DNA of 64,000 bases from a virus. Below, piece after piece: positions 17,050 to 41,668 of the stretch (positions are counted from its first letter, which is position 1; each line of letters begins with the position of its first letter). The stretch is taken from the IMG/VR virus record IMGVR_UViG_3300035698_026991, positions 1,202 through 65,201 of that record; one strand, written 5' to 3'. The position numbers were made by a program, and so were the translations under genes. The notes below the pieces were generated by a model. It made no database searches and was not told the DNA's origin. It worked only from the letters and a program-made list of their open reading frames with translations.

Positions 17050-18120
17050 TTAACTATAAAGTTTGTTTAACATCTTTCTGGTTATTGGACCGACTCTTCC
17101 AAATCCAGGGGAAGTCTTAGAAGCAACAACACTATATCTTAGCTGAAACTCACCGACACCCTTTTTAGTAATAGCTCCGTAGTATCCTGTACTCTCTGTA
17201 TTGATAGGAAAGACACCTTCATATTTTAATATATCCTGAAGTACTTTTATTTCACCATTCGTTTGTCCAAAAACTAAATCATTATTAAAAGTGAATTGAG
17301 GTTTATTTTCTTCTGGAAGTTCATCAAATTTAAAATTCATTGTATATGCAGCAAAGAAGTTTCTTTTATTAAAGAAATCTTCAGTAATTATTCTCTGGCC
17401 TCCCTTACCATGATTAGGTCCCCAAGAATCTTCTATAATAATTGCTTTCTTTCCTTTATACATTGTGAAATCAACAGCGGTTACTGAATGTCTTCCTATT
17501 GATGGTGCTTTTATATCTAAGTTGTTAATTTTAATTTCAGGGACTTCTTTATCCCATTCATTATTCGTAAAGAAGAACCATACCATTATGGGTTTCTTTG
17601 TTACTTGTAACGTAGAAGCTATAGCCTCTATATTCCTTGTTGGTAAAATAAGATAGTTTCCAATTTTAAATATTTCACCCACGTCTTCTTTGTAGTCTTC
17701 TATCACTGTTGTATCCATCTGTAAGTCAGTCATATTCTGTGAAGGGACTAATTGTTCTAATGTAACTCCTTCCTTTGATATTTCAAAAACATCAGTTCCA
17801 CCCATTCCTGGTTGTGGTTTATTAATTCTTTTCTTATAGATATCAGTTGCTGAAAAATGTACGTAACTTTTATTCTTCAACCAGTACATAATCCCCATCA
17901 TCTTTGCCATAGTCTGAGCTACGCAAGATCCTGAACCATCTTGGTTGTAGATAGGAAATTTTCTAATCTGTGAAAAATCTTTTTCAACCCAATTAACAGG
18001 AGTAAAAGAAGTTACAAGTTCCTCTATTTTATAATCCTTATTTTTTTCTTCCTTACTTCTAGTATCGATATTTGCTCCAGAAGTGAAAGTCATTTTTTTC
18101 TTTCTAAAAAAGTTAAACAT
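17050..18120 (-). CDS. endolysin candidate: papain-like cysteine peptidase with C-terminal peptidoglycan-binding domain
   Basis: QDGSGSCVAQT resembles the papain-family Cys active-site motif. C-terminal LQDILKY..GYYGAITKKGVGEFQ..RVGPITRKMLNKL matches the PG_binding_1 pattern. Confidence 0.5.
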   Translation of the reverse strand: MFNFFRKKKMTFTSGANIDTRSKEEKNKDYKIEELVTSFTPVNWVEKDFSQIRKFPIYNQDGSGSCVAQTMAKMMGIMYWLKNKSYVHFSATDIYKKRINKPQPGMGGTDVFEISKEGVTLEQLVPSQNMTDLQMDTTVIEDYKEDVGEIFKIGNYLILPTRNIEAIASTLQVTKKPIMVWFFFTNNEWDKEVPEIKINNLDIKAPSIGRHSVTAVDFTMYKGKKAIIIEDSWGPNHGKGGQRIITEDFFNKRNFFAAYTMNFKFDELPEENKPQFTFNNDLVFGQTNGEIKVLQDILKYEGVFPINTESTGYYGAITKKGVGEFQLRYSVVASKTSPGFGRVGPITRKMLNKLYS

Positions 18121-18132
18121 ATTTTTTTATGA

Positions 18133-21100
18133 TTATTTATTAATGTTTGTTCTCGTTGTATCAAGTGGGTACATTGGGAACCCTGTTCCACTTAGTAATG
18201 ATCGTATTGTTTTTTGCATTACATTTTCTTTTGTCATTTTACCAATCGAGGTCCTACCTTGTGTAGCCATTGCGTTTCTTCTCATTACGTAACTCGGTAA
18301 GTAATTAATTGCCTCTGGTGACATACCTGTCATTCCCAAAGGTACACCTAGATAATTAGCAACTCCTGGGGTTATTGCATCAGTAACATTTCTTAATGCA
18401 TAAGGAGCTCTATCCTTGAAACTAACATTAATCTTTCTTCCTTTTTCATCATAGTTAGGATATAGAGGTTGACCGAATTGTCCCTGTGGACTCTGACCTG
18501 TACCCTTCAAAATCATTGGTTGAATAATAAAGTCTTTAAACATTTGTCCAATAGGATGTTGTAGGATAGGTAATTTATCTAATGTCTTTAATGCTGTACC
18601 CTGAGGAGAATCATCATAAGTTCTTTCTGATGGATTAAGCATATTCATTGTAAGATGTGGAATATAACCCTTAACATCTAAGTTCATCATTCCAAAGAAT
18701 TTTATAACAGTAGGTGAATTTAAGAATTGATTATATTTGTTTTCTAATGCAGCTCTTTCTTCTGGAGTTCTACTAGAGTTAATTTCATTTATTGCAAATG
18801 AAACTTTATTGAAATAAGCTGGGTTGTGCATAAGAGTTTTAGCTGTCTTTGGTAACATAGCATATTGGAATGATAAGAAAGGTGCGCTAACGATAGGTAG
18901 TGATCTCATTATTTTAACGAAATCTGGCATAGCTGAGTAATTCATGTAAGCCTCACTAGAGACTCTTGAAGCTGCTAAAGGTTTTATTTTATACAATCTT
19001 TCTCCTCCAGATATAACTGATGGCAAAACAGAATCTGTTAAATCTACAACGTTACCAACTTTAGCAAGTTCCTCTGCTGTTAAACCTACTTTAGTTAAAT
19101 AAATGAAATTACCAATTTTGAACCCTTGGTCAATACTTTCGTAGTTCTTTGTTAAACCATTAATAATCATATCTGCGTATTTAAGAGTAAAGTTATTTGG
19201 ATCCTCTGCTACTTTTTCTGCAAGCTTAGATCTAAATTTTTCATATCGAGAAGCTTCTGATATCTCACCACTTCCTAACCATGAACTATATTCATCTACA
19301 TTCGTTTTTCTTACATTATTAATAGAGTCTTCCATTCTCGCTTCTGCAGGTGTTGTAAATTTTTTACGATTTTCCTCCAGAACTTTTTCTGCAGTGATTT
19401 CACCACGAGTTTTTTTAGGAACTTCATCAACTGCATTGATTGCTTCGTCAGCAGCTCTAGAAACTTTTCCAACTTGATCTGGAATTTCATCTCCAATCTC
19501 TTTTATAATTTTTTCTACTTTTTTAACTTCATCAGAAAGACTTAATACCTGTCCAGCAAATTGTTTTTCTTGTTTCATCCTTTCAAATATTTCTAATGGG
19601 TTTACCCCCATGATACTTTTGAATACAGTAGGATTCTCTACTGCTAATTTTCTCATTGAATCATCTGCTCCTGTAAATACTTCTAAGAATTGTTTCATAG
19701 GTAATTTACCTTTAGCAAATTTACGCCCCTGCATAACAGCTTCGATATATTTTGGTTTATATGTAGGTAGACCCATCATTGCTCCCATAAAGTAATTACC
19801 TAAATAAGCAACAACATGTGATCCTAAGTTAAGAGGAACTTTGAAAGCTTTAAAAACATGAGTAAAGTTTTCTAAACCAGTAAGGATGTTATTAAGAGCT
19901 TTATAATTAACAAACTCTTTCCCTCCAGAATTCCATACGTCTGCAAGTTTTGTAGCATCTTTCTCAGCTTCAAGCACAGTCTTCTTACTTAAGACACGTC
20001 CAGCTTTCCAATCTTCTATAGTTGTGTTTTTAACTCTTCCAATAAAATCATCATATGACTTTACACCTGTCAAACCTGGGGTTAGAGGTTTATACATCTC
20101 TACCATTAGTTTTTGATCAACTACTTTCCCTGCTTGTTCTAATAAAGCATTCGCATTTTCAATACTATCAAGAATTTTAACTTGCCCACCTTGGAATTCT
20201 TTCTTTAAAGGATGTGAAATTGCTCCATCAGCATCAGTTACTGTATCTCTAATAAATTTCTCAACTTCTTGCTTAGATGTTGGATCAAATCTAGTTACCT
20301 TAGCTTTTGGATTATAATAGTCAGCTAAATCAAGGAAATCAGCTTTTTCTGCATTTCCTGTACCAATGACATCTATTTTACCCATCTCATGGATAACTTC
20401 ATCTTTCTTTTCCATTAAAGTACTTCTTCTTAATGGTGAATAATCAAAGAAGTCTGCTAATATATCTCCCTTTGTTTGACCTAATTTTTTTACACTCTCT
20501 TTACTTAAATGACGAAATCCTGGAATTTTACTTAAAGTTTCGTTTTTACCTCTTATAGCATCTTCAATATATCCTCCTACTTTACCTGATGCAAAACCTT
20601 TCCCCCTCACTAAACCTTTTCCTAAAGCTTCTAATGGGTCCTTACCTATCAATTTATCATATCTATCTGCATCTTTAACTGCCCTTGCAGCGAATCTCTC
20701 TGCTAATGTTTTACTTTTTTCTATTCCCTTAGTTACTGTCTTTGCAGCTGTTTTAAATCCTGCAAACTCACCTGCAGTATCAGCTACCTTACCAACTACT
20801 TTTGTAGCTGTCTTAATAGGAAGGAATTTTGAAGTTGTTATTGCCTTTCTACTTAAGTTAGATGTTAATCCTTTTCCAACAGCTTCAAGTGCGCCTTTAG
20901 CTCCAGATTTGGTTGCTCCTTTTACTAATCCAGTTCCTACTCTAGGAATCAACGCAGCTGAACCAGCTGTCGCCCAGTTAATAGGATCAAACATAACATC
21001 TAATAGGAAACCTAATGTTCCACGGACTGCTCTGTTATCTACACCTTCTTGTTTTAGAATATCTCCAAAGGTAAGACCTTTCTCTCTCGCTGCTTTTGTA

Positions 21101-21438
21101 TTTTCTAATAGACTAGATTTAGTCCCTTGTCCTAAAGCATATTGTGAAACACCAGCAATTGTATTAAGTGGTTTTTGAAGTCCTTCAAGTCCTCTCATAA
21201 ACAAACCTTCCGGTCTCTCAGTTGAGCCAGTACTTTTATCAGAAGCTCCATACCATCTATTACCTATCTGTTCACTTTTAATACCTTCAATCTGTCTTTT
21301 AAGTTTTGTTAAGTTTGAACTGATAGTTAAATCACCCTTACTAGGAGAGGTATTACGAGCATAAGCTGTAGTAGAGTTACTAAGCTGACTTTCCATTGTT
21401 GATCTTAAGTTTTCTAATTCTTGTATTGTTTTTGCCAT
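18133..21438 (-). CDS. large virion-associated protein (1101 aa), function unknown
   Basis: Single long ORF, Lys/Gly/Ala-rich N-terminal third. No recognisable catalytic motif. Confidence 0.4.
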   Translation of the reverse strand: MAKTIQELENLRSTMESQLSNSTTAYARNTSPSKGDLTISSNLTKLKRQIEGIKSEQIGNRWYGASDKSTGSTERPEGLFMRGLEGLQKPLNTIAGVSQYALGQGTKSSLLENTKAAREKGLTFGDILKQEGVDNRAVRGTLGFLLDVMFDPINWATAGSAALIPRVGTGLVKGATKSGAKGALEAVGKGLTSNLSRKAITTSKFLPIKTATKVVGKVADTAGEFAGFKTAAKTVTKGIEKSKTLAERFAARAVKDADRYDKLIGKDPLEALGKGLVRGKGFASGKVGGYIEDAIRGKNETLSKIPGFRHLSKESVKKLGQTKGDILADFFDYSPLRRSTLMEKKDEVIHEMGKIDVIGTGNAEKADFLDLADYYNPKAKVTRFDPTSKQEVEKFIRDTVTDADGAISHPLKKEFQGGQVKILDSIENANALLEQAGKVVDQKLMVEMYKPLTPGLTGVKSYDDFIGRVKNTTIEDWKAGRVLSKKTVLEAEKDATKLADVWNSGGKEFVNYKALNNILTGLENFTHVFKAFKVPLNLGSHVVAYLGNYFMGAMMGLPTYKPKYIEAVMQGRKFAKGKLPMKQFLEVFTGADDSMRKLAVENPTVFKSIMGVNPLEIFERMKQEKQFAGQVLSLSDEVKKVEKIIKEIGDEIPDQVGKVSRAADEAINAVDEVPKKTRGEITAEKVLEENRKKFTTPAEARMEDSINNVRKTNVDEYSSWLGSGEISEASRYEKFRSKLAEKVAEDPNNFTLKYADMIINGLTKNYESIDQGFKIGNFIYLTKVGLTAEELAKVGNVVDLTDSVLPSVISGGERLYKIKPLAASRVSSEAYMNYSAMPDFVKIMRSLPIVSAPFLSFQYAMLPKTAKTLMHNPAYFNKVSFAINEINSSRTPEERAALENKYNQFLNSPTVIKFFGMMNLDVKGYIPHLTMNMLNPSERTYDDSPQGTALKTLDKLPILQHPIGQMFKDFIIQPMILKGTGQSPQGQFGQPLYPNYDEKGRKINVSFKDRAPYALRNVTDAITPGVANYLGVPLGMTGMSPEAINYLPSYVMRRNAMATQGRTSIGKMTKENVMQKTIRSLLSGTGFPMYPLDTTRTNINK

Positions 21439-22384: not shown

Positions 22385-22457
22385 GCTTCTATAGCTCAGC
22401 TGGTAGAGCAATAGTTTTGTAAACTATAGGTCGTGGGTTCGATTCCTACTAGAAGCT
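22385..22457 (+). tRNA. tRNA-Thr (anticodon UGU)
   Basis: Manual fold: acceptor GCTTCTA/TAGAAGC, D-arm GCTC-AGCTGGTA-GAGC, anticodon arm ATAGT-TTTGTAA-ACTAT, T-arm GTGGG-TTCGATT-CCTAC. No encoded CCA. Confidence 0.85.
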
Positions 22458-22500
22458 CAGGTATTAGTTCATTGAAAATTGAGGTCAAGAAAAAAAATCT

Positions 22501-33497: not shown

Positions 33498-34316
33498 ATG
33501 AATAACGCAAAACTAGTCGTAGGAATGATAGTAACAGTAGTATTAATCTTATTAATACTAGCACTTAATCCATTTGTACAAATCGAATCAGGAGAAAGAG
33601 GAGTAGTAACAACTTGGGGTGAAGTCCAAGATGATATTATGCAAGAAGGGCTACACTTTAGAATGCCTATAGCACAAGAAATTCACAAAATGGACATCAA
33701 AATTAAGAAATTTGAAGTTGCAGAACTAGCTTATTCTAAAGATGCACAAATAGTAGAAGCTGCAGTTACTCTAAACTATGAGTTAACTCCATCATTTGTT
33801 AAACAAATCTTCACAGAAGTAAGGAAAGATTATGAAAGTATTATAATCACACCTGCCATTAAAGAAGCTATTAAATCAACAATAGCACAATATACAGCAC
33901 AAGGAATAATTGATAATAGACCTAAAGTAAGAATGGACATAAAAGAACTTCTTACAACACAACTAGCACTTGGAGGAATCACAGTTAAAGAAATCGCCAT
34001 CACAAACATTGACTTTGATGATGATTATGAACTAGCTGTTAAACAAAAACAAGTTGCTGAACAAGAAGCTCTTAAAGAAGTAAACATCACAAAATCAGAA
34101 GCAGAAAAGAAGAAACAACAAATCCTTATCGCTCAAGCTCTTGCTGAGAAAACAAGATTAGAAGCACAAGCTCTAGCATCACAACAAGGACAAAAAGTAA
34201 TTGACAAGATCTATGCAGAAGCAGCATTAAAAGCAGCTGAAAATTGGAATGGAGCATTACCAAACAACTTCGTTCCAGGATCCACATTACCAATAATGAA
34301 TATTAAAACACAGTAA
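33498..34316 (+). CDS. SPFH/band-7 (prohibitin/HflC-like) domain membrane protein
   Basis: N-terminal TM helix. GVVTTWGEVQDDIMQEGLHFRMP start of the SPFH domain. C-terminal Ala/Gln/Glu-rich coiled coil (AQALAEKTRLEAQALASQQ) as in HflK/C. Confidence 0.75.
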   Translation: MNNAKLVVGMIVTVVLILLILALNPFVQIESGERGVVTTWGEVQDDIMQEGLHFRMPIAQEIHKMDIKIKKFEVAELAYSKDAQIVEAAVTLNYELTPSFVKQIFTEVRKDYESIIITPAIKEAIKSTIAQYTAQGIIDNRPKVRMDIKELLTTQLALGGITVKEIAITNIDFDDDYELAVKQKQVAEQEALKEVNITKSEAEKKKQQILIAQALAEKTRLEAQALASQQGQKVIDKIYAEAALKAAENWNGALPNNFVPGSTLPIMNIKTQ

Positions 34317-34354: not shown

Positions 34355-34522
34355 ATGATTAAATGTAATAGTTTCCTATATCCACACGAATGGACTAAAT
34401 GGAAAGAAGTCAAAAGAGGACCTGTAGTAAATTCAGAAAAAACAGTCATAGCAAATTATATTGAAATGGAAAGAGAATGTGAACTTTGTGGACTGAAACA
34501 ACTGAAAGAAACAAGAGCTTAA
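34355..34522 (+). CDS. small KW-rich peptide with ECxLCG motif (55 aa)
   Basis: YPHEWTKWKEVKRGP...ERECELCGL. Paralog of 28787..28957. Confidence 0.35.
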   Translation: MIKCNSFLYPHEWTKWKEVKRGPVVNSEKTVIANYIEMERECELCGLKQLKETRA

Positions 34523-34539
34523 TCATTATATATATTATT

Positions 34540-35460
34540 ATGGAAAAAAACACAACAGATGTCTTAGAATATTTTAAGAAGAAAATAGATAGTGATCCAG
34601 AACTAAAAAAACTCTATGATAATGAAAAAGATATTATGCCTAAATACCAAAAAACAACACTAAAGACAATAGACTATCCAGATGCTCCATCAGGCAAGAT
34701 CAATATAAACAAATGGGTACCACCTTTCAAAAAAGTGAAGGGTGGTTACGGATTTGTAGGAGTAGTAGCTGAAGATTCAAAAACAGGACAACTACAATGT
34801 CATCATTGTGGTAAATGGTTTCAACAGTTACAAACTCATATGATTAAGCACGGTCTAAATGGAAAATCATACAGAAAGAAATATGGTCTACTCTCATCAA
34901 CTGCATTGAAATCAAAAAAATTAAGATTAATGCATTCAAAAGTTTGTAGAGCATCACAAGCAGCAGGGAAAATGAACTTAGGCCACAAAGGAGGATATGG
35001 ATTTAAGAAAGGAAATAAAGAAGCAGCGAATAGAAAAGGAACACTCACTAAAGAGGAAGCTAAAAATAGACATGGAGTATGTGATTTACAAATAATGTCA
35101 AAGATAATGGCATTGAGTAGAAAATTAGGTAAAACACCTTCACTCATTGATATAAAAAAAGAATATGGAGGAAGCATTATATCAATAATGCATTCAAGAT
35201 ACGGAAGTTACATCAAATATTGTAAAGATACACTCAAGCTAACACCTTGTATATCAGCACATAACCCAAAACTTAAGAACAAAAAAGAATGGAGAGAACA
35301 CTTAATAAAACTTGGTATAAAAATATCAAAAAAACAAAAAGGAAAGATATTAAGAATCTCTCACCTTCCAATGAAAGAATCCAGATACATATACAAATAT
35401 TTCAATGGAATTAAAAGTTATAGAAAAGCAGTCGAAAAACAATTAAAAATTAATAGCTAA
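34540..35460 (+). CDS. Lys-rich protein with Ros/MucR-type zinc-finger-like segment
   Basis: CHHCGKWFQQLQTHMIKHGLNGKSYRKKYGL resembles the MucR/Ros C-terminal motif (C.ECGK.FK.L..H...HG.T...YR..WGL). Start set at MEKNTTD. Confidence 0.4.
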   Translation: MEKNTTDVLEYFKKKIDSDPELKKLYDNEKDIMPKYQKTTLKTIDYPDAPSGKININKWVPPFKKVKGGYGFVGVVAEDSKTGQLQCHHCGKWFQQLQTHMIKHGLNGKSYRKKYGLLSSTALKSKKLRLMHSKVCRASQAAGKMNLGHKGGYGFKKGNKEAANRKGTLTKEEAKNRHGVCDLQIMSKIMALSRKLGKTPSLIDIKKEYGGSIISIMHSRYGSYIKYCKDTLKLTPCISAHNPKLKNKKEWREHLIKLGIKISKKQKGKILRISHLPMKESRYIYKYFNGIKSYRKAVEKQLKINS

Positions 35461-35466
35461 CACAAT

Positions 35467-35838
35467 ATGAAAAAAAACATAAAAGCTTTAGCAAAAGCTC
35501 TTAAAAGTATACCGACAGAAGAGGAAGAAGAAAAGAAAGCAAAACTAGTAACACTAAAAAAGTTAGCACAAGTAGGTAATATAGGAATTACTATAGGAGG
35601 CTTTAAAAAAGGAGTAGCGAAATGTGTTGATTACTCTGAAGTACAAAGTAACAAAAATTACATAAGCGACTATATTAAACAAGAAAGAGCTAACCAACAA
35701 TTAACTCAAGAAGAGTTGGGATATAAAGCTGACCTATCAAGAAGTACAATAAGTGCAGCTGAAAGAGGCTATGGAATCTCAAAACATACTATGTTTTGTA
35801 TTATTAACTCCTTAGGGAAACAACTAGTAATCCAATAA
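35467..35838 (+). CDS. XRE-family helix-turn-helix transcriptional regulator
   Basis: LTQEELGYKADLSRSTISAAERGYGISKHTMFCIINSLG fits the HTH_3 pattern. Confidence 0.55.
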   Translation: MKKNIKALAKALKSIPTEEEEEKKAKLVTLKKLAQVGNIGITIGGFKKGVAKCVDYSEVQSNKNYISDYIKQERANQQLTQEELGYKADLSRSTISAAERGYGISKHTMFCIINSLGKQLVIQ

Positions 35839-35844
35839 AATCAT

Positions 35845-36129
35845 ATGAAATATACAACACCAACAAATGATAATATCATTAAATTCATAATGAAATATGG
35901 TTTAAGTTTAGTTATTTTTGTCATTTGTTTCTTGTTGGTAGTAGGATTTGTAAAAAAAAATATAAAATTCGCTACCTACTTAGCAGCACCTAAGTGTAGT
36001 ATACAAACACTAGAAGATAGCCAAACAATTTTATATAATCAAAAAGATTTCGAAATTGAAACATTTGATTATAGAAAATATGAATACTCTGGTGATATTG
36101 TATCCATTTATTTAACAGAGATAAAATAA
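35845..36129 (+). CDS. membrane-anchored hypothetical protein
   Basis: TM helix LSLVIFVICFLLVVGFV. Confidence 0.4.
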   Translation: MKYTTPTNDNIIKFIMKYGLSLVIFVICFLLVVGFVKKNIKFATYLAAPKCSIQTLEDSQTILYNQKDFEIETFDYRKYEYSGDIVSIYLTEIK

Positions 36130-36177
36130 CTAAATAAACCCAATTATTATTAAAAAAATAGAACTAATTAAAAACAT

Positions 36178-36597
36178 ATGAAAAGTATAAGAGAAGCAGC
36201 CTTAAGCAAAGAGGAACCAAAGACACCAGCATATTCTTCATCATATCCTAAATACTCAAAACCATCAGATAGCATATATGATAATTATGGATGTGATCGT
36301 TTTGGAGAAGGAGATGATATCGACTCAATGTTTCCAAGATCAAACTACTCACCACCAGACCCAAACCTTGTAATAATTACCTTTAAACTTCAATACACAG
36401 AAATCGGCCCAGAAGCTGATCCTGATAATTCTGCGTTTAACGAAGGAGTTGCTGAAACAAAAGCAACACAACTAGCATACGATAGAACAGAGAAGTTATT
36501 AGGTAAAAAATTCGATTCAAAATATTCTGTATGTTTTAAATCAACAGACAACTATGATGAATACGAAATAGAAGTAGAACTAACACCAAACTATTAA
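36178..36597 (+). CDS. hypothetical protein
   Basis: 139 aa. Immediately upstream of the MoxR/vWA pair. Confidence 0.4.
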   Translation: MKSIREAALSKEEPKTPAYSSSYPKYSKPSDSIYDNYGCDRFGEGDDIDSMFPRSNYSPPDPNLVIITFKLQYTEIGPEADPDNSAFNEGVAETKATQLAYDRTEKLLGKKFDSKYSVCFKSTDNYDEYEIEVELTPNY

Positions 36598-36625
36598 TAA
36601 ATAAATAATAAAAACAAAACTTATT

Positions 36626-37894
36626 ATGATTATGCAACCAAAGACAATCAATTATTCAAAAATAGAAGTTCCTATCAACGACGGATCAAGCCAATTCGTC
36701 CCTAAGGTGGCAGCAAAGTTCATAGACCATGGATCTATCCTAAAGACGCTAGCAATCTCTGTAAGGGACAATTTGCCCATCCTATTGATGGGTGAGTCAG
36801 GAACTGGAAAGACTTCTGCCATAAGATATATGGCTAATCAAACAAAAAACGGATTAAGAAGAGTAAACCTTAACGGAGGAACAACAGCTGATGAATTAGT
36901 AGGAAGACTTCTAATCAATGAAAAAGGAACTTATTGGGTTGACGGAATTCTAACAGAAGCAATGAGAAATGGGGAATGGATTGTATTAGATGAAATTAAT
37001 GCCGCATTACCTGAAGTTCTATTTGTTCTTCAATCAGTCCTAGATGATGACGGTTATCTTGTTCTAACAGAAAAAGACGATAAAGAAATCATACATAAGC
37101 ATAAAGACTTCCGTCTATTTGCTACTTGTAACCCACCTGAATATGCTGGAACCAAAGAATTGAACAAAGCTTTACTATCAAGATTTGCTGTTTGTATTAA
37201 TGCAGAATTTCCACCTGAAAGAAAAGAATTTGAGATAATTGAACACCACCTAGGAAACGCTATTGCATCATCAGAAATGGCAATCAAAATGGTAGGATTA
37301 GCAAATGAAACTAGGAAAGCCAAGGAACTAGGAAAATCAGATTACGCAATTAATACCAGAGACGTACTAAACACCCTTAAGTTAGTCGAATTCGTAGATC
37401 CATTAGAAGCTTTAGGATTAGCTTTCGCTAATAAATTAGATCTAGCAGACAACAAAGCATTAAAGATAATGGCAAAACTACATTTACCAACTAAAAAGAA
37501 AGCACTATCTGTTAGAAAACAAATTAAGAAAGCAATAGATCTAAACATTGGAAAAACTTATCTGTTAGACGGAGATGTTCATAATGCATATTTTGGGTTA
37601 ACTGACGATGAAAAGATGTTCAAATCTTTAATCAGAAATGATTTAGGATTTATCATTGGAAACACAGTCAGAGAAAATGGAATCAAAGGAGACGAATTTG
37701 TGATTGAAGCAACTTACTACGAAGATGAAGATAGTGGAGCAAGCTCAAAAGAACTTTCATCAAAAGGAGAAAAAATAGCAAGTGCAATCAATATTGTTGA
37801 CGGACCTAACAAAGGGAAAAGAGGAATCGTTATACATCACGAAGACCTAGACAAAACACTAGATATCATAAAACTTATTTACGAAATCAATTAA
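36626..37894 (+). CDS. MoxR-like AAA+ ATPase (AAA_5 type)
   Basis: Walker A LLMGESGTGKTSAI, Walker B WIVLDEINAA, sensor-1 RLFATCNP. 422 aa with a C-terminal extension. Confidence 0.75.
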   Translation: MIMQPKTINYSKIEVPINDGSSQFVPKVAAKFIDHGSILKTLAISVRDNLPILLMGESGTGKTSAIRYMANQTKNGLRRVNLNGGTTADELVGRLLINEKGTYWVDGILTEAMRNGEWIVLDEINAALPEVLFVLQSVLDDDGYLVLTEKDDKEIIHKHKDFRLFATCNPPEYAGTKELNKALLSRFAVCINAEFPPERKEFEIIEHHLGNAIASSEMAIKMVGLANETRKAKELGKSDYAINTRDVLNTLKLVEFVDPLEALGLAFANKLDLADNKALKIMAKLHLPTKKKALSVRKQIKKAIDLNIGKTYLLDGDVHNAYFGLTDDEKMFKSLIRNDLGFIIGNTVRENGIKGDEFVIEATYYEDEDSGASSKELSSKGEKIASAINIVDGPNKGKRGIVIHHEDLDKTLDIIKLIYEIN

Positions 37895-37917
37895 TAACCT
37901 AAGATATATTATGCATT

Positions 37918-39408
37918 ATGAAACTAATCGAATTCCAAAAAGTGGGAGAGATGCTCGCTAGAGAGCATAAAATAAGAATCACAGAAGGAAAAGGTTGGGC
38001 AGCAAACATAAAAAACAGAGCAGTATTCTACAAGAAAGATGATATCTATAATCTACCAGAAGACCATATTCTTGGTCTTCTGCTCCACGAGATTGCTCAC
38101 ATCCACTACACACAAGATGTTGCTATGCCCAAAAAGAACGAGGAACTATCAGGAATAACCCTAAATATGTTAGAAGACATATCTGTCGAAAACATAATTG
38201 GTAACGACTATCCAAACGCAGCTGAAATTCTAGAATCAACAAAAGTAGAAGTTCTAGATACATTGATAAAAATGTTACCATCAATGAATAACATATCAGT
38301 ATATGAAAAAGCTTTACTGTATGCTGCAACAAGATTCGAAGGTAGAGGTTATGCCTTTAGCATTACAAAATATGAAAAACTAGGAGAAAAGATTTCAAAA
38401 ATAATGCTAAGAAAGAAAAATGAAATACTTAGAAGAAACGAAACAAAAGACTTAATGCCAATAGTAAAAGAAATTGTTGATCTAATGGTAAAAGAAGAAG
38501 GCGAACCAACAGACGAAGAAAAAGAAAGAATGCAACAAAGTATTTCAAGAGAAGGAAATGCTAATAGTCAACAACAAGGAGGAGAAACACAAGAAGAAAA
38601 AATTGGTAAATTAAAAGCTGGAACAGGTTGGGAAAAAGGACCTGAAATAGATAGACATTTAACTTTTGTTGATCAAATAGCTGACCAAGCTACAAAAATA
38701 GGAAAAGAACTAAGAACAGTTCTTAAAAGAAACAATGCTATGGAATATGGGGGAAGATACCGATCAGGAAAACTCTTAGCAAAAAGATTTGTAAGAGTTA
38801 GAGCTTTAAACGATCGAAACCCATTCACCAGGAGAATTGTTAAAAGTAATCAAAGTTATGCTTTCGCTTTAGCGTCAGATATATCAGGATCAATGTTTAA
38901 TGGAGGAGAAAATAATTATGGAAGTTATGCTTTAAGTTCATTACACATGGTAGGAGAAGCATTAAGATATGCATCAATACCACGATCAATGACTATCTTT
39001 GGAGAATATGCTAACACAGTTGCCCCAATGGGAAAAAGTAAAATAAACTGGGATCAATTAGCAAATGTAATAGATGTTAGAAAAGCTAATCAAGGAGGAA
39101 CAAGAATAGATAAAGCAATAGAAGCTTGTACAAAAGAATTAGGTAAAGTAGTAGCAGAAAGAAAAATAATGATTGTTCTAACAGATGGATCAAGTGATCT
39201 AAGTGATATGAGGAAAGCTCATAAGAAAGCAACAAAAGCAGGCATTGAATGTTTAGGAATTACTATCGGAGATGGTTATAATAGTAGTTATATGGACGAT
39301 ACATTCACTCCTAAGAAAAACACAAAAATTGAAGATACGGGAGATACAGAACTAATAGGAACAGAATTTATTAAAATCTTAAAGACATCCGTAGCAATGT
39401 CTAAATAA
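37918..39408 (+). CDS. von Willebrand factor A (vWA) domain protein, MoxR partner
   Basis: MIDAS DxSxS motif AFALASDISGSM and downstream VLTDGSSD. N-terminal HEIAHIHY could be a metal-binding motif. Confidence 0.7.
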   Translation: MKLIEFQKVGEMLAREHKIRITEGKGWAANIKNRAVFYKKDDIYNLPEDHILGLLLHEIAHIHYTQDVAMPKKNEELSGITLNMLEDISVENIIGNDYPNAAEILESTKVEVLDTLIKMLPSMNNISVYEKALLYAATRFEGRGYAFSITKYEKLGEKISKIMLRKKNEILRRNETKDLMPIVKEIVDLMVKEEGEPTDEEKERMQQSISREGNANSQQQGGETQEEKIGKLKAGTGWEKGPEIDRHLTFVDQIADQATKIGKELRTVLKRNNAMEYGGRYRSGKLLAKRFVRVRALNDRNPFTRRIVKSNQSYAFALASDISGSMFNGGENNYGSYALSSLHMVGEALRYASIPRSMTIFGEYANTVAPMGKSKINWDQLANVIDVRKANQGGTRIDKAIEACTKELGKVVAERKIMIVLTDGSSDLSDMRKAHKKATKAGIECLGITIGDGYNSSYMDDTFTPKKNTKIEDTGDTELIGTEFIKILKTSVAMSK

Positions 39409-39414
39409 ACAATT

Positions 39415-39633
39415 ATGAAAAATTTTGATAGTGCTGACGTAGCAGAAATAGCACATGAGAGAACCAAAGAGGAGTGTAAAAAGAAAAGAATTACACTCGA
39501 CAAACCAGAAGATGAAAATGGAAATATACATTACACCGACAAAGCACAAGATATTTTCAATCATCATTTTGACGAGGTTGAAGCAAAATTTGAAAAAGAC
39601 TTAATAGATTTAGAAACACACAAAAAGAACTAG
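39415..39633 (+). CDS. hypothetical protein
   Basis: 72 aa. Confidence 0.4.
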   Translation: MKNFDSADVAEIAHERTKEECKKKRITLDKPEDENGNIHYTDKAQDIFNHHFDEVEAKFEKDLIDLETHKKN

Positions 39634-39679
39634 TTACAAGTTAAGAACCTGCAGGTCGGCAGTAACCGGCCAATAAAAA

Positions 39680-40081
39680 ATGGAAAAAGAACTAAAAAGC
39701 TTAGTGATACATATTGACGAACACAGTAAAGGTGGATTTGGGTATTCTATTTACAAAACACAAGAAGATCTAGAAAATGGAGAAGATGAATTAGACGGAG
39801 GAATTTGCACAAGCACATTAGAAAATGCATTAGAAATGGCAACAGATCAAGCAAAAGATTTGTTAAAAAGACTAAACATAAGCAAAAAAGAAGAAGAAAA
39901 AGCAAATTCAGTAATGCAAACAAAACTTCACTTACTTGAAAAAATATTAAAAGATATGAATATTGCTGTAGCTTGTGATGAAGAATGGAATACTATATTT
40001 GGAAAATGGGAAATCGCAATAGATGAGGATACAAACAGACCTGTAATATTTGGTTTAAGTGGAACTGAAATAGATCAATAA
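39680..40081 (+). CDS. hypothetical acidic protein
   Basis: 133 aa. Confidence 0.4.
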   Translation: MEKELKSLVIHIDEHSKGGFGYSIYKTQEDLENGEDELDGGICTSTLENALEMATDQAKDLLKRLNISKKEEEKANSVMQTKLHLLEKILKDMNIAVACDEEWNTIFGKWEIAIDEDTNRPVIFGLSGTEIDQ

Positions 40082-40085
40082 AATT

Positions 40086-40334
40086 ATGAAAACTATAAAC
40101 ATAACATTAATCGATGATTCTGACTGGAAAAATCCTTATCGTAGTCATAGAGATTTTGATGTTCCAAAAAGTCTTAGATATCATTATATTCAAAGAAAGA
40201 TAGAAGAAATTATTCAAGATGAAAAAGAAAACAACAATGAATATTGTGATGAATCAATTTTTGAGAGAATTAGTAATTTAAAAGGATTTAAACCCGTAAG
40301 TCAAACAATAAATTATTTTGAATTTGACTTTTAA
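40086..40334 (+). CDS. hypothetical protein
   Basis: 82 aa. Confidence 0.4.
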   Translation: MKTINITLIDDSDWKNPYRSHRDFDVPKSLRYHYIQRKIEEIIQDEKENNNEYCDESIFERISNLKGFKPVSQTINYFEFDF

Positions 40335-40345
40335 AATTAAATAAA

Positions 40346-40876
40346 ATGAAAAAAAAGAAAACCCCAAGAGAACTTAGAGAAAAAGATGTACCAATGTACA
40401 TAAGCGAAGAAAACAAAATGGACCCAGAAATGTTAAGTAATTTCTTAAACAACAACGGAGAACCCCAACCCGTAATAGAAATGAATCAAGATGAAGTTAT
40501 GCCTTTGTATATATTCATAGCTAAATTCGAAAGTGGAATGGCGAAGACCAAAAAAGATGAAGTCAACATAAATTTAATGATGACAGTCATTCATCTAAAG
40601 GAAACCAACACACTTGAAGTTAGAGGAAGAATGAAATATGAAGATACAGGAAGAAAAACAATATTCAAAATCCCCAAAGTCCTTAAAATCTCAGAACTAA
40701 AGGAAGCAAAAGAAGTCATAAATGAATTTTATACTGGTATGATAAAAGACTTACCTTTTGAACCAACCGATATACCATTCGAACTAGAATTTGGAATAGA
40801 TGAAGATGCTAAAAGTATTATTAAAAAGTTAGACGATAGTAACCAATTTGATATTGGAACTATTAAGAAAAAATAA
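40346..40876 (+). CDS. hypothetical protein
   Basis: 176 aa. Confidence 0.4.
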   Translation: MKKKKTPRELREKDVPMYISEENKMDPEMLSNFLNNNGEPQPVIEMNQDEVMPLYIFIAKFESGMAKTKKDEVNINLMMTVIHLKETNTLEVRGRMKYEDTGRKTIFKIPKVLKISELKEAKEVINEFYTGMIKDLPFEPTDIPFELEFGIDEDAKSIIKKLDDSNQFDIGTIKKK

Positions 40877-40877
40877 T

Positions 40878-41324
40878 ATGCCAAACTGGTGTAATAACAA
40901 CGCAAAAATTGTAGGAGATGAAAAAGAATTGAAAAAGTTCTCGAAAAAAATAAAAAAGAAAAAAGAATTCCTAAATTCATTTATACCAATCCCTAAAGAA
41001 TTAAAAGGGACAACAAGTCCTACAAAAAAAAGAGATTTAAATCTAATACTAAAATACAAAGCAGATAATTGGTATGATTGGAATATAATAAATTGGGGTA
41101 CCAAATGGGATTTTGAAATCTTTGGTCTTAATGATCAAGATGAATATGAAAGAACATTTTCATTTGATTCACCTTGGGGACCACCACTCACAGGATTTAA
41201 GAAAATATCTGAAAAATTTCCAGAACTAACATTCTTTCTAGAATATGAAGAACCTGGTATGGGATTCAAAGGACTAGCAAAAATAAAGAATGGAAAAATT
41301 GATGATAAATGTTTTGATTATTAG
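40878..41324 (+). CDS. hypothetical protein with N-terminal MPNWCNN motif (DUF1281-like by recollection)
   Basis: Start moved to the in-frame ATG 40878. MPNWCNNNAKIVG ... NWGTKWD pattern. Confidence 0.35.
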   Translation: MPNWCNNNAKIVGDEKELKKFSKKIKKKKEFLNSFIPIPKELKGTTSPTKKRDLNLILKYKADNWYDWNIINWGTKWDFEIFGLNDQDEYERTFSFDSPWGPPLTGFKKISEKFPELTFFLEYEEPGMGFKGLAKIKNGKIDDKCFDY

Positions 41325-41339
41325 CTAAGAAATAAAAAA

Positions 41340-41630
41340 ATGAAAGTAATAATCCCAGCAAATAGTCAATTACCAAAACTAAAAGGAAAAACTATTGTAA
41401 CGAAAATCAAAGGAACTCATATGGTATTAGTAGGAGAACAATTACCATCCAAAAACTGGAATATATATACAGAATGTAAAGAAATAAATTACAGAAAAAA
41501 GATATTTGAAAATGTATCAACAGAAAAATTTAATTCATTAACAAGAATATCTCAAAAAAATCTTGCAAATTTCAACTTCAATAATTTCCTAAAAAAGTTT
41601 GTTAAAAAGATTATAAAAATTATTAATTAA
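41340..41630 (+). CDS. hypothetical protein
   Basis: 96 aa. Last gene of the plus-strand block. Confidence 0.4.
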   Translation: MKVIIPANSQLPKLKGKTIVTKIKGTHMVLVGEQLPSKNWNIYTECKEINYRKKIFENVSTEKFNSLTRISQKNLANFNFNNFLKKFVKKIIKIIN

Positions 41631-41632
41631 AC

Positions 41633-41668
41633 AAAAAACCACGAATAATAATATTCGTGGTTTTTTTT
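41633..41668 (+). terminator. rho-independent terminator (bidirectional)
   Basis: AAAAAACCACGAATA-ATA-ATATTCGTGGTTTTTTTT. Perfect 10-bp stem with A-run and T8. Confidence 0.8.

What the first reader, a model, noticed from the sequence alone, without database searches (positions are those of the whole stretch)
36178..39408. MoxR-type AAA+ ATPase plus vWA-domain protein gene pair in a phage
There are intact Walker A/B and sensor motifs (LLMGESGTGKTS, VLDEINAA, ATCNP) and a MIDAS vWA motif (DISGSM...TDGSSD). MoxR/vWA pairs act as chaperone or remodelling machines. They are also the cores of recently described NTP-dependent vWA-MoxR conflict (immunity) systems with variable effectors. A phage-borne copy could be an assembly chaperone, an anti-defence or counter-defence device, or a hijacked immune module. 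The preceding gene (36178..36597) and following small genes (39415..41630) are unknown and could be the effector or partner components.
Basis: partly seen in the sequence, partly recalled or inferred. Interest (0 to 1): 0.7.

Follow-up and report, generated by a model that had tools for sequence, protein, structure and literature searches.

The report
Phage CobS/CobT-like ATPase–protease pair
This phage carries a divergent copy of the widespread phage "cobS/cobT" gene pair: a ring-shaped ATPase motor and an adaptor protein that keeps an intact zinc-protease site which the one solved bacterial cobalt-chelatase CobT appears to lack, so it is a known kind of module whose real job is still unknown.

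Summary
ORFs 36626-37894 and 37918-39408 encode an AAA_5 (MoxR-class) ATPase with all catalytic motifs invariant, and a vWA protein with a complete, invariant MIDAS site. The N-terminal HEIAH region is a real zincin domain: the motif is invariant and the predicted fold matches metallopeptidases.

The pair is not new in kind. It is a compact, divergent member of the phage "cobS/cobT" (MoxR plus metallopeptidase-vWA) pair already described in cyanomyophages, jumbo phages, CRP-810-type phages and archaeal tailed viruses. A superfamily profile finds authentic CobT as the best solved relative (E = 1.6e-41), and the ATPase profile ranks CobS and CbbQ about equal.

It fails the tests for the vWA-MoxR immune systems: no third component, no variable effector, no PADLOC hit. 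It also fails the CobS/CobT family thresholds, and no CobN is present in the window.

Across this family and eight other phage lineages the pair sits in non-structural early or replication regions, and in seven of them among replication or recombination genes.

Most likely mechanism, by analogy with the CobSTN and NorQD structures: a hexameric motor threaded by the vWA "shaft", with MIDAS-mediated capture of a client that is remodelled and probably cleaved. The client is unknown.

New member of a known kind; moderate interest.

The parts
36178..36597 (+). Small acidic protein (139 aa) just upstream of the ATPase; candidate accessory protein, regulator or substrate
   Evidence: No Pfam, PHROG, NCBIfam or PADLOC hit. 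Detected by tblastn in 6 of 10 related loci, usually directly upstream of the ATPase. Has a conserved N-terminal peptide (MKSIREAALSKE-like), a variable disordered linker and a conserved alpha/beta domain of about 80 aa. Only 3 close homologues by word search.
36626..37894 (+). CobS-like MoxR-class (AAA_5) AAA+ ATPase, 422 aa: the motor
   Evidence: Pfam AAA_5 2.8e-29; phrog_249 1.8e-49. Family profile against the PDB: CobS 3.1e-29 (residues 15-280), CbbQ 7.5e-29, NorQ 3e-23, MoxR-proper 2r44 only 1.6e-6. All catalytic motifs invariant.
36791..36814 (+). Walker A (GESGTGKT, residues 56-63)
   Evidence: G56, E57, S58, G59, G61 and K62 invariant in 29 homologues.
36989..36994 (+). Walker B (D122, E123)
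   Evidence: Invariant.
37493..37891 (+). Family-specific C-terminal domain of the ATPase (residues about 290-422), absent from the CobS, CbbQ and NorQ matches
   Evidence: Conserved across the family, with Y312, D317, S386, G393, K396 and H404 invariant. No Pfam or PDB sequence match. Matches to CobS, CbbQ and NorQ end near residue 270-280.
37918..39408 (+). CobT-like adaptor, 496 aa: N-terminal gluzincin (M48-like) domain, acidic disordered linker, 'shaft', then a vWA/MIDAS domain
37918..38547 (+). Zincin-like N-domain (residues 1-210): helix alpha1, a three-stranded sheet, then 8-9 helices
38086..38100 (+). HExxH zinc-binding and catalytic motif (H57, E58, H61)
   Evidence: Invariant in the family. 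H57 and E58 invariant and H61 at least 90% conserved in 126 superfamily representatives.
38164..38190 (+). 'NMLEDISVE' helix (N83-E91), the likely third zinc ligand (Glu) of a gluzincin
   Evidence: E86, D87 and E91 invariant in the family. D87 invariant, and N83 and E86 at least 90% conserved, in the superfamily. Aligns with CobT 'FDAVEQARVE'.
38548..38682 (+). Variable, acidic, low-confidence linker (residues about 211-255)
   Evidence: Poorly conserved with many indels. pLDDT 48-73. CobT has an unobserved linker of about 90 residues.
38719..38853 (+). Pre-MIDAS 'shaft' element (residues about 268-312, LKRNNAMEYGGRYRSGKL...KSNQ)
   Evidence: L269, K270, N272, G279, G284, K285, F303 and N311 invariant. 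Aligns with midasin MIDAS 6qt8 and with the CobT region containing the shaft Q373-D414 that inserts into the CobS ring. Low pLDDT of 59-73.
38878..38892 (+). MIDAS DxSxS (D321, S323, S325); completed by T395 and D423
   Evidence: Invariant in the family and the superfamily.
40346..40876 (+). 176-aa ORF loosely linked to the pair
   Evidence: Homologues in 3 of 10 related loci, not always adjacent. No family hit.
40848..41324 (+). DUF1281_C / Api92-like ferredoxin-like protein, often near the pair
   Evidence: Pfam PF18406 6.4e-12; phrog_12644 1e-16. Present near the pair in 6 of 10 related loci.
41633..41666 (.). Bidirectional terminator-like hairpin closing the + strand block that contains the pair
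   Evidence: 15-bp stem flanked by A and T runs, immediately after the last + strand ORF.

Best explanation
The two genes encode a CobS/CobT-type motor-adaptor machine.

Shown here:
- The 422-aa protein is a catalytically competent AAA_5 ATPase of the CobS/CbbQ/NorQ clade.
- The 496-aa protein has a gluzincin-like N-domain with intact HExxH...E motifs, a disordered acidic linker, a conserved pre-MIDAS element and a vWA domain with a complete MIDAS site.
- The pair is strictly co-inherited.
- The pair lies in the early/replication block of the phage, not in the structural block.

Inferred by analogy with the CobSTN and NorQD structures:
- The ATPase forms a hexameric ring.
- On ATP binding, the pre-MIDAS 'shaft' of one adaptor inserts through the ring.
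- The zincin N-domain docks on an ATPase small domain.
- The MIDAS face, pointing away from the ring, captures an acidic residue of a client protein.
- ATP hydrolysis pulls on the adaptor and remodels the client.

Inferred from the strict conservation of the zincin site: in the phage versions the client, or the adaptor itself, is also cleaved. The module would then be an ATP-driven, MIDAS-targeted protease/remodeller, not a cobalt chelatase.

Speculative: the client is a host or phage protein relevant to the DNA-replication or host-takeover stage. The conserved 139-aa upstream protein may be a regulator, adaptor or substrate.
For: Identity and motifs.

Homology to CobT: hhalign against the CRP-810 'CobT' gives 90% probability, and that protein hits Pfam CobT plus CobT_C. 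The superfamily profile hits CobT 9uka_G at 1.6e-41.

Mechanistic template: CobT_N is M48C-like and binds the CobS small domain, the CobT shaft inserts into the CobS ring, and CobN sits on the opposite side near the MIDAS. For NorQD, a 'finger' passes through the pore and the authors suggest this binding mode is general for MoxR/VWA pairs.

Purifying selection on both sites: H57, E58, D87, D321, S323 and S325 are invariant in 126 representatives at about 20% identity. Of 7 phage lineages chosen only through the ATPase, 6 have a partner with both HExxH and a MIDAS motif.

Context: the pair is adjacent in 10 of 10 related loci. A prim-pol/DnaB helicase lies 0.7-4.6 kb away in 8-9 of 10. No structural genes are linked. 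Other lineages place the pair beside DnaB/primase, DNA polymerase III alpha, UvsX/primase-helicase, or the sliding clamp, clamp loader and DNA polymerase.
Against: - There is no experimental evidence for proteolysis by any member of this group. The solved bacterial CobT has the same fold in a non-proteolytic role, so the domain could be a pure docking module even with HExxH retained.
- The HExxH invariance in the 126-sequence set is partly circular, because those sequences were found with an N-domain profile.
- The alignment showing that CobT lacks HExxH is not statistically significant in that segment, and the profile alignment simply starts after it.
- Ring, shaft and stoichiometry were not modelled for this pair.
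- Linkage to replication genes is only contextual. In this window the helicase is 11 kb away.
- The client is unknown.
Confidence: 0.55

Rival explanations
1. Auxiliary metabolic genes. The pair is a viral cobaltochelatase CobS/CobT that hijacks host CobN to raise cobalamin synthesis, for example for B12-dependent ribonucleotide reduction.
For: The superfamily is truly homologous to CobT (1.6e-41), and the ATPase's best single-module PDB relative is CobS, about equal with CbbQ. This is the usual annotation and the proposal of Liu et al. 2021. The location among nucleotide and replication genes would fit a role in dNTP supply.
Against: - The window proteins are far below the curated thresholds: NCBIfam CobS scores 75 against 558 bits, and the Pfam CobT and CobT_C families give no hit at E<=0.01.
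- The zincin HExxH...E site is invariant in phage versions, while the solved CobT appears to have no HExxH there and has EQ in place of ED.
- The ATPase has an extra conserved C-terminal domain.
- No CobN-like ORF is present in the window. The only ORF over 1000 aa has no Pfam hit.
- Published authors themselves call the phage function uncertain.
Confidence: 0.15
2. Virion-assembly chaperone plus maturation protease, as proposed for the MoxR and metallopeptidase-vWA pair of group 2.2 jumbo phages, and by analogy with Acidianus two-tailed virus p618/p892.
For: Identical domain architecture to that described by Iyer et al. 2021, with a precedent in ATV tail development. The phage also encodes its own GroEL, so it invests in folding functions.
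Against: In this window the structural module is a separate minus-strand block (about 1-21.4 kb), whereas the pair lies in the plus-strand early/replication block. No structural gene is linked to the pair in 10 related loci or in the 8 other phage lineages inspected.
Confidence: 0.13
3. Conflict module. Either a hijacked vWA-MoxR immune system, or an anti-defence device that degrades or remodels host immunity proteins.
Against: No PADLOC hit of substance. No VMAP, iSTAND, FtsH or beta-propeller third component, and no variable effector domains. The pair is a conserved near-core gene set over very divergent phages with a fixed architecture, unlike fast-turnover defence or anti-defence cargo.
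Confidence: 0.1

Closest known systems
Phage 'cobS/cobT' cluster, equivalent to the phage MoxR plus metallopeptidase-vWA pair (T4-like cyanophages, where 'cobT' is often annotated 'peptidase'; CRP-810-type roseophages; SSU5-like phage-plasmids; Gordonia, Rhizobium, Stenotrophomonas and Ochrobactrum phages; haloarchaeal tailed viruses; group 2.2 jumbo phages)
   Same: Same two-gene unit. Same adaptor architecture: an N-terminal HExxH...EDxxIE zincin, an acidic linker and a DxSGSM MIDAS vWA domain. N-domain fold matches viral CobT/VWFA proteins. Same non-structural, replication-proximal placement. The closest isolated phage by capsid protein, CRP-810, carries the pair.
   Different: Much more compact adaptor (496 aa against 600-810). 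Only about 23-34% local identity, and no hit to Pfam CobT or CobT_C. The ATPase carries a family-specific C-terminal domain, where other phage CobS-like proteins have N-terminal extensions. The family is known only from metagenomes: 115 clusters, with no cultured representative.
Bacterial aerobic cobaltochelatase CobS-CobT(-CobN)
   Same: Homologous motor and adaptor. Same N-domain topology (alpha1, a three-stranded sheet, then helices; M48-like), disordered linker, shaft plus vWA/MIDAS.
   Different: No CobN in the window. The solved CobT appears to lack the HExxH motif and has EQ for ED, while the phage protein keeps the full zincin site. The CobT MIDAS has Asn (N518) in the position I take to be equivalent to T395 here; that equivalence is my assignment. 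Scores are far below the curated CobS and CobT thresholds.
NorQ-NorD, CbbQ-CbbO and midasin/Rea1 (AAA_5 motors with MIDAS adaptors)
   Same: ATPase clade. [quoted passage not shown] The motor-adaptor-client logic.
   Different: Those adaptors are not known to carry an active peptidase domain (my own knowledge, not tested here). Their clients (cNOR, Rubisco, pre-60S factors) have no counterpart in the phage window.
vWA-MoxR ternary conflict systems (Kaur, Burroughs, Iyer and Aravind 2020)
   Same: A MoxR-class ATPase adjacent to a vWA protein.
   Different: No third component, no C-terminal effector diversity, different ATPase subfamily signal (bpMoxR 21.8 bits against a cut-off of 27), and a phage core-gene behaviour.
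AAA+-coupled zincin proteases (FtsH; Wss1/SPRTN with Cdc48/p97)
   Different: Not homologous as systems. Here the protease is on a separate MIDAS adaptor and not fused to the motor.

Membership tests
MoxR-class AAA+ ATPase, AAA_5 / CobS-CbbQ-NorQ clade | AAA_5 domain above the Pfam gathering score | tested here: met
   PF07728 at 102.4 bits against a cut-off of 22, E=2.8e-29.
MoxR-class AAA+ ATPase, AAA_5 / CobS-CbbQ-NorQ clade | Intact Walker A, Walker B, sensor 1, arginine finger and sensor 2 | tested here: met
   All invariant in 29 homologues.
MoxR-class AAA+ ATPase, AAA_5 / CobS-CbbQ-NorQ clade | Closer to CobS, CbbQ and NorQ than to MoxR-proper or RavA | tested here: met
   Profile against the PDB: CobS 3.1e-29, CbbQ 7.5e-29, NorQ 3e-23, MoxR-proper 2r44 1.6e-6, RavA not hit.
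Cobaltochelatase CobS (equivalog) | NCBIfam TIGR01650 score above its cut-off | tested here: not met
   75.1 bits against a cut-off of 558.55.
Cobaltochelatase CobT | Pfam CobT (PF06213) and CobT_C (PF11775) matches | tested here: not met
   No hit at E<=0.01 for the window protein. Homology is seen only through a superfamily profile (1.6e-41 to 9uka_G) and hhalign to a phage CobT.
Cobaltochelatase CobNST system | Presence of the CobN catalytic subunit, in phage or host | tested here: inconclusive
   No CobN-like ORF in the 64-kb window. The only ORF over 1000 aa has no Pfam hit. The host is unknown, so host CobN cannot be tested.
Phage cobST / MoxR plus metallopeptidase-vWA pair | Adjacent ATPase and vWA genes, co-inherited | tested here: met
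   Adjacent in the window and in 10 of 10 related loci.
Phage cobST / MoxR plus metallopeptidase-vWA pair | vWA protein with an N-terminal HExxH zincin domain and a C-terminal MIDAS | tested here: met
   Motifs invariant. Fold matches zincins and viral CobT-like proteins. Same signature in 9 other phage proteins.
Gluzincin / M48-like metallopeptidase | HExxH plus a downstream Glu on a following helix; zincin fold | tested here: met
Gluzincin / M48-like metallopeptidase | Zinc binding and peptidase activity | not testable with these tools
   Needs biochemistry.
vWA-MoxR ternary conflict systems (Kaur et al. 2020) | Third component (VMAP, iSTAND, FtsH or beta-propeller) | tested here: not met
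   None found among ORFs 36178-41630 by Pfam, NCBIfam or PADLOC. Definition taken.
vWA-MoxR ternary conflict systems (Kaur et al. 2020) | Variable effector domains fused C-terminally to the vWA component | tested here: not met
   The vWA domain is C-terminal and the architecture is fixed in the representatives aligned.
Known anti-phage defence systems (PADLOC) | Significant match to a defence-system model | tested here: not met
   Only generic P-loop matches (at best 3.7e-7 to an RtcR AAA domain) and none for the vWA protein.

The most novel reading that the evidence does not exclude
The phage genes annotated everywhere as 'cobS/cobT auxiliary metabolic genes', including this divergent family, may not be cobalamin genes at all. 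They may be a conserved ATP-driven, MIDAS-targeted zinc protease/remodeller that acts on a host or phage client during the replication or takeover phase. Bacterial CobT would then be a derivative in which the peptidase site has decayed into a docking domain.
Probability: 0.35. Interest if true: 0.65.

Novelty: new member of a known kind. Interest (0 to 1): 0.4.

Why it matters
cobS is treated as a core gene, and even as a community marker, of marine cyanomyophages. The cobS/cobT pair is near-universal in several phage families, yet its function has never been shown.

Three results here make the question sharply testable. The adaptor keeps a strictly conserved zincin active site that the solved bacterial CobT appears to lack. 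The pair travels with replication or recombination genes across unrelated phage lineages. Neither the chelatase nor the immunity family tests are met.

If the protease reading is right, many published inferences about viral boosting of vitamin B12 synthesis would need revision, and a new class of AAA+-coupled targeted proteases would be defined.

This particular window adds a compact, easily expressed variant (422 and 496 aa), but it does not add a new kind of system.

Tried and rejected
- Megablast of the 5.7-kb region against isolated phages gave no match. tblastn of the vWA protein gave only 4 weak phage hits.
- PADLOC gave only generic P-loop noise, so a defence-system reading was rejected.
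- Pfam on the N-domain alone gave only sub-threshold zincin hits, so structure prediction was needed.
- A PDB sequence search with the ATPase C-terminal domain gave nothing.
- A homologue search for the 139-aa upstream protein gave only 3 close relatives.
- The genome-contig scan for hosts gave 3 short MAG contigs (two DPANN, one CPR) that may be mis-binned phage fragments, so no host was assigned.
- The promoter scan was not above the shuffled expectation (41 found against 45 expected), so it was not used.
- I considered an SPFH/Band7 link by analogy with HflKC-FtsH. I rejected it as a conserved feature because the Band_7 gene is found in only 1 of 10 related loci.
- Alteromonas phage R22Y has a short ATPase match but no detectable zincin-vWA partner within 6 kb. 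It is the one exception among the 7 lineages chosen through the ATPase.
Full report
**Observation.** They are separated by 28 and 23 bases, and all the quoted motifs occur in them. The window is a tailed phage genome of about 32% G+C. A minus-strand structural block holds an SU10-type major capsid protein, portal and large terminase. Elsewhere there are GroEL, a prim-pol/DnaB helicase, an SNF2 helicase and UvsX. The pair lies in a plus-strand block running from about 28 to 41.6 kb. That block also holds an SPFH/Band7 protein, a Ros/MucR-like protein and an HTH protein, and it ends at a strong bidirectional terminator-like hairpin at 41633-41666.

**The ATPase.** The 422-aa protein matches Pfam AAA_5 (E=2.8e-29) and PHROG 249, the family annotated 'porphyrin biosynthesis', that is phage CobS (E=1.8e-49). 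Against solved structures, a family profile ranks CobS (3.1e-29, covering residues 15-280), CbbQ (7.5e-29) and NorQ (3e-23) far above MoxR-proper (1.6e-6). Midasin scores highest only because it has six such modules. In 29 homologues with 56-85% identity to the window protein, Walker A, Walker B, sensor 1, the arginine finger and sensor 2 are all invariant. Residues about 290-422 form a conserved family-specific domain with no sequence match in Pfam or the PDB. The protein is far below the NCBIfam CobS and GvpN equivalog cut-offs.

**What family this is.** The only isolated-phage matches to the vWA protein are genes annotated CobT. The CRP-810 'CobT' matches Pfam CobT plus CobT_C, and it aligns with the window family's N-domain at 90% hhalign probability. 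An HMM of the N-domain finds 733 clusters at 50% identity among 1.84 billion representatives, and only about 13 of them belong to the window's close family. In an alignment of 126 of these (about 20% identity to the query), H57, E58, D87, D321, S323 and S325 are invariant, and H61, N83, E86, G324, M326, D423 and G424 are at least 90% conserved. A profile of that alignment finds authentic CobT (9uka_G) as the best solved relative (1.6e-41), ahead of midasin (6e-17) and NorD (1.5e-14). That alignment begins at the ED helix, which reads 'FDAVEQARVE' in CobT. The HExxH helix is not aligned, and a weak pairwise alignment puts 'GDSMALRQARH' there.

**Bias check on HExxH retention.** The 126 sequences were found with an N-domain profile, so their HExxH invariance is partly circular. 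As a less biased test I examined phages selected only through the ATPase. Six of seven lineages have a neighbouring protein with both HExxH...ED and a MIDAS DxS(G/S)S motif: Gordonia Hanem, Prochlorococcus P-SSM2, a Klebsiella SSU5-like phage, Stenotrophomonas DLP_6, Ochrobactrum OC and the haloarchaeal virus HVTV-1. The exception is Alteromonas R22Y.

**What the literature says.** It already knows this gene pair under two names. Iyer et al. 2021 describe a MoxR ATPase plus a vWA co-chaperone fused to an N-terminal metallopeptidase in group 2.2 jumbo phages. They propose a role in virion assembly with proteolytic processing, citing the ATV MoxR-vWA precedent (PMC7824862). Liu et al. 2021 describe a cobST cluster widespread in tailed viruses of eight host orders. 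[quoted passage not shown] Almost all CRP-810-type phages carry cobS and cobT, with the function of phage cobS called uncertain (PMC11288001). CRP-810 is also the closest isolated phage to this window by capsid protein (29% identity).

**Context.** In 10 related metagenomic loci the ATPase and vWA genes are always adjacent. The 139-aa upstream protein is detectable in 6, usually directly upstream. The DUF1281_C/Api92-like protein (window 40848-41324) is nearby in 6, and the 176-aa ORF (40346-40876) in 3. A prim-pol/DnaB helicase lies on the opposite strand 0.7-4.6 kb downstream in 8-9, and no structural gene is linked. In this window the helicase is 11 kb away. In other lineages the pair lies as follows:
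- Gordonia: beside DnaB and primase.
- Klebsiella and Rhizobium phages: beside DNA polymerase III alpha.
- P-SSM2: beside the gp45 sliding clamp and gp44 clamp loader.
- DLP_6: beside UvsX and a primase-helicase.
- Ochrobactrum OC: beside gp46/47-like endonuclease, sliding clamp, clamp loader and DNA polymerase.
- CRP-810: near an integrase, in the region at the left end of the genome.
- HVTV-1: among small unannotated ORFs with an HNH endonuclease nearby.

This placement is non-structural in every case, and replication-proximal in seven of the nine lineages. It argues against a dedicated morphogenesis role, but it does not identify the client.

**Mechanism.** The best template is the CobSTN assembly study (bioRxiv 10.64898/2026.07.21.739949). 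CobS forms a ring. CobT_N is an M48C-like domain with the same topology as my model, and it binds the CobS small domain. A disordered linker of about 90 residues follows. CobT_C is a vWA variant whose shaft (Q373-D414) inserts into the ring on nucleotide binding, and CobN binds on the opposite side next to the MIDAS. The NorQD work reaches the same general model, and its authors suggest that binding mode is general for MoxR/VWA pairs (PMC9976466). The window protein's residues about 268-312 align with the CobT shaft region and are modelled with low confidence, as expected for a protruding element.

I therefore infer a hexameric motor threaded by the adaptor's shaft, with MIDAS capture of an acidic residue on a client and ATP-driven remodelling. 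Because the zincin site is under strict purifying selection in the phage proteins but appears lost in the solved CobT, I infer that the phage machines also cleave something: the client, or the adaptor itself as an activation step. The ring, the shaft insertion, the proteolysis and the client are all inferences, and none was tested here.

**Rivals.**
- The chelatase reading is weakened by the intact peptidase site, the failure of the curated CobS and CobT thresholds, the extra ATPase domain and the absence of CobN in the window. The host is unknown, and true homology to CobST keeps this reading alive.
- The virion-assembly reading has no contextual support in any lineage examined.
- The immune-system reading fails each defining feature of the Kaur et al. 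systems and of PADLOC. An anti-defence role remains possible as a special case of 'host client'.

**Verdict.** The feature is a divergent, compact, metagenome-only family of a known and widespread phage gene pair, so it is a new member of a known kind. Its interest lies in the unresolved function of the whole group and in the testable contrast between an intact zincin site in phage versions and an apparently decayed one in the solved CobT.

Noticed in passing
window 48759-50381 (-): The phage encodes a full-length GroEL-type chaperonin (phrog_5725 E=3.5e-136; Pfam Cpn60_TCP1 4.4e-61). I did not look for a GroES partner.
   Followed up: no
window 33498-34316 (+); L003 5628-6440: An SPFH/Band7 protein lies about 2 kb upstream of the pair. 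A 35%-identical homologue occupies a similar position in one related contig (L003) but is absent from the other nine loci.
   Followed up: partly
window 34486-35460 (+) and 35467-35838 (+): A Ros/MucR-type zinc-finger protein (TTG start, overlapping a 55-aa ORF at 34355-34522) and an HTH_3 protein lie immediately upstream of the block. An HTH_3 gene also precedes the pair in L001 and L012.
   Followed up: partly
window 18133-21438 (-) and 17050-18120 (-): A 1101-aa ORF with no Pfam or PHROG hit sits in the structural block, next to a papain-like (Peptidase_C1) protein. It may be an injected or tail protein.
   Followed up: no
window 40848-41324 (+): A DUF1281_C / Api92-like ferredoxin-like protein (Pfam 6.4e-12) travels with the pair in 6 of 10 related loci. 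Its function is unknown.
   Followed up: partly
L001 14021-15775 and 21036-21485: A related contig (115.9 kb) carries a large serine recombinase a few kb from the pair, followed by cellular-looking genes (a LepA/EF4 fragment and a large PG_binding/Fn3_assoc protein). This suggests that some relatives are integrated prophages and could reveal the host.
   Followed up: no
window 36120-36660: The leaders upstream of the 36178 and 36626 start codons are A/T-rich with no obvious Shine-Dalgarno sequence. This may hint at a host with SD-independent initiation. I looked at only two genes.
   Followed up: no
window 22385-22458 (+): A single tRNA-Thr (anticodon TGT) sits at the switch between the minus-strand structural block and the plus-strand block.
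   Followed up: no
L017, L018, L019 (MAG contigs): The only genome-collection hits are short contigs binned into Nanoarchaeia, Woesearchaeota and Staskawiczbacteria MAGs. They are either mis-binned phage fragments or a hint of DPANN or CPR hosts.
   Followed up: no
L023 2824-3540 (HVTV-1 gene 65): The haloarchaeal virus HVTV-1 encodes a separate SprT-like protein about 2 kb upstream of its CobS-like and zincin-vWA pair.
   Followed up: no
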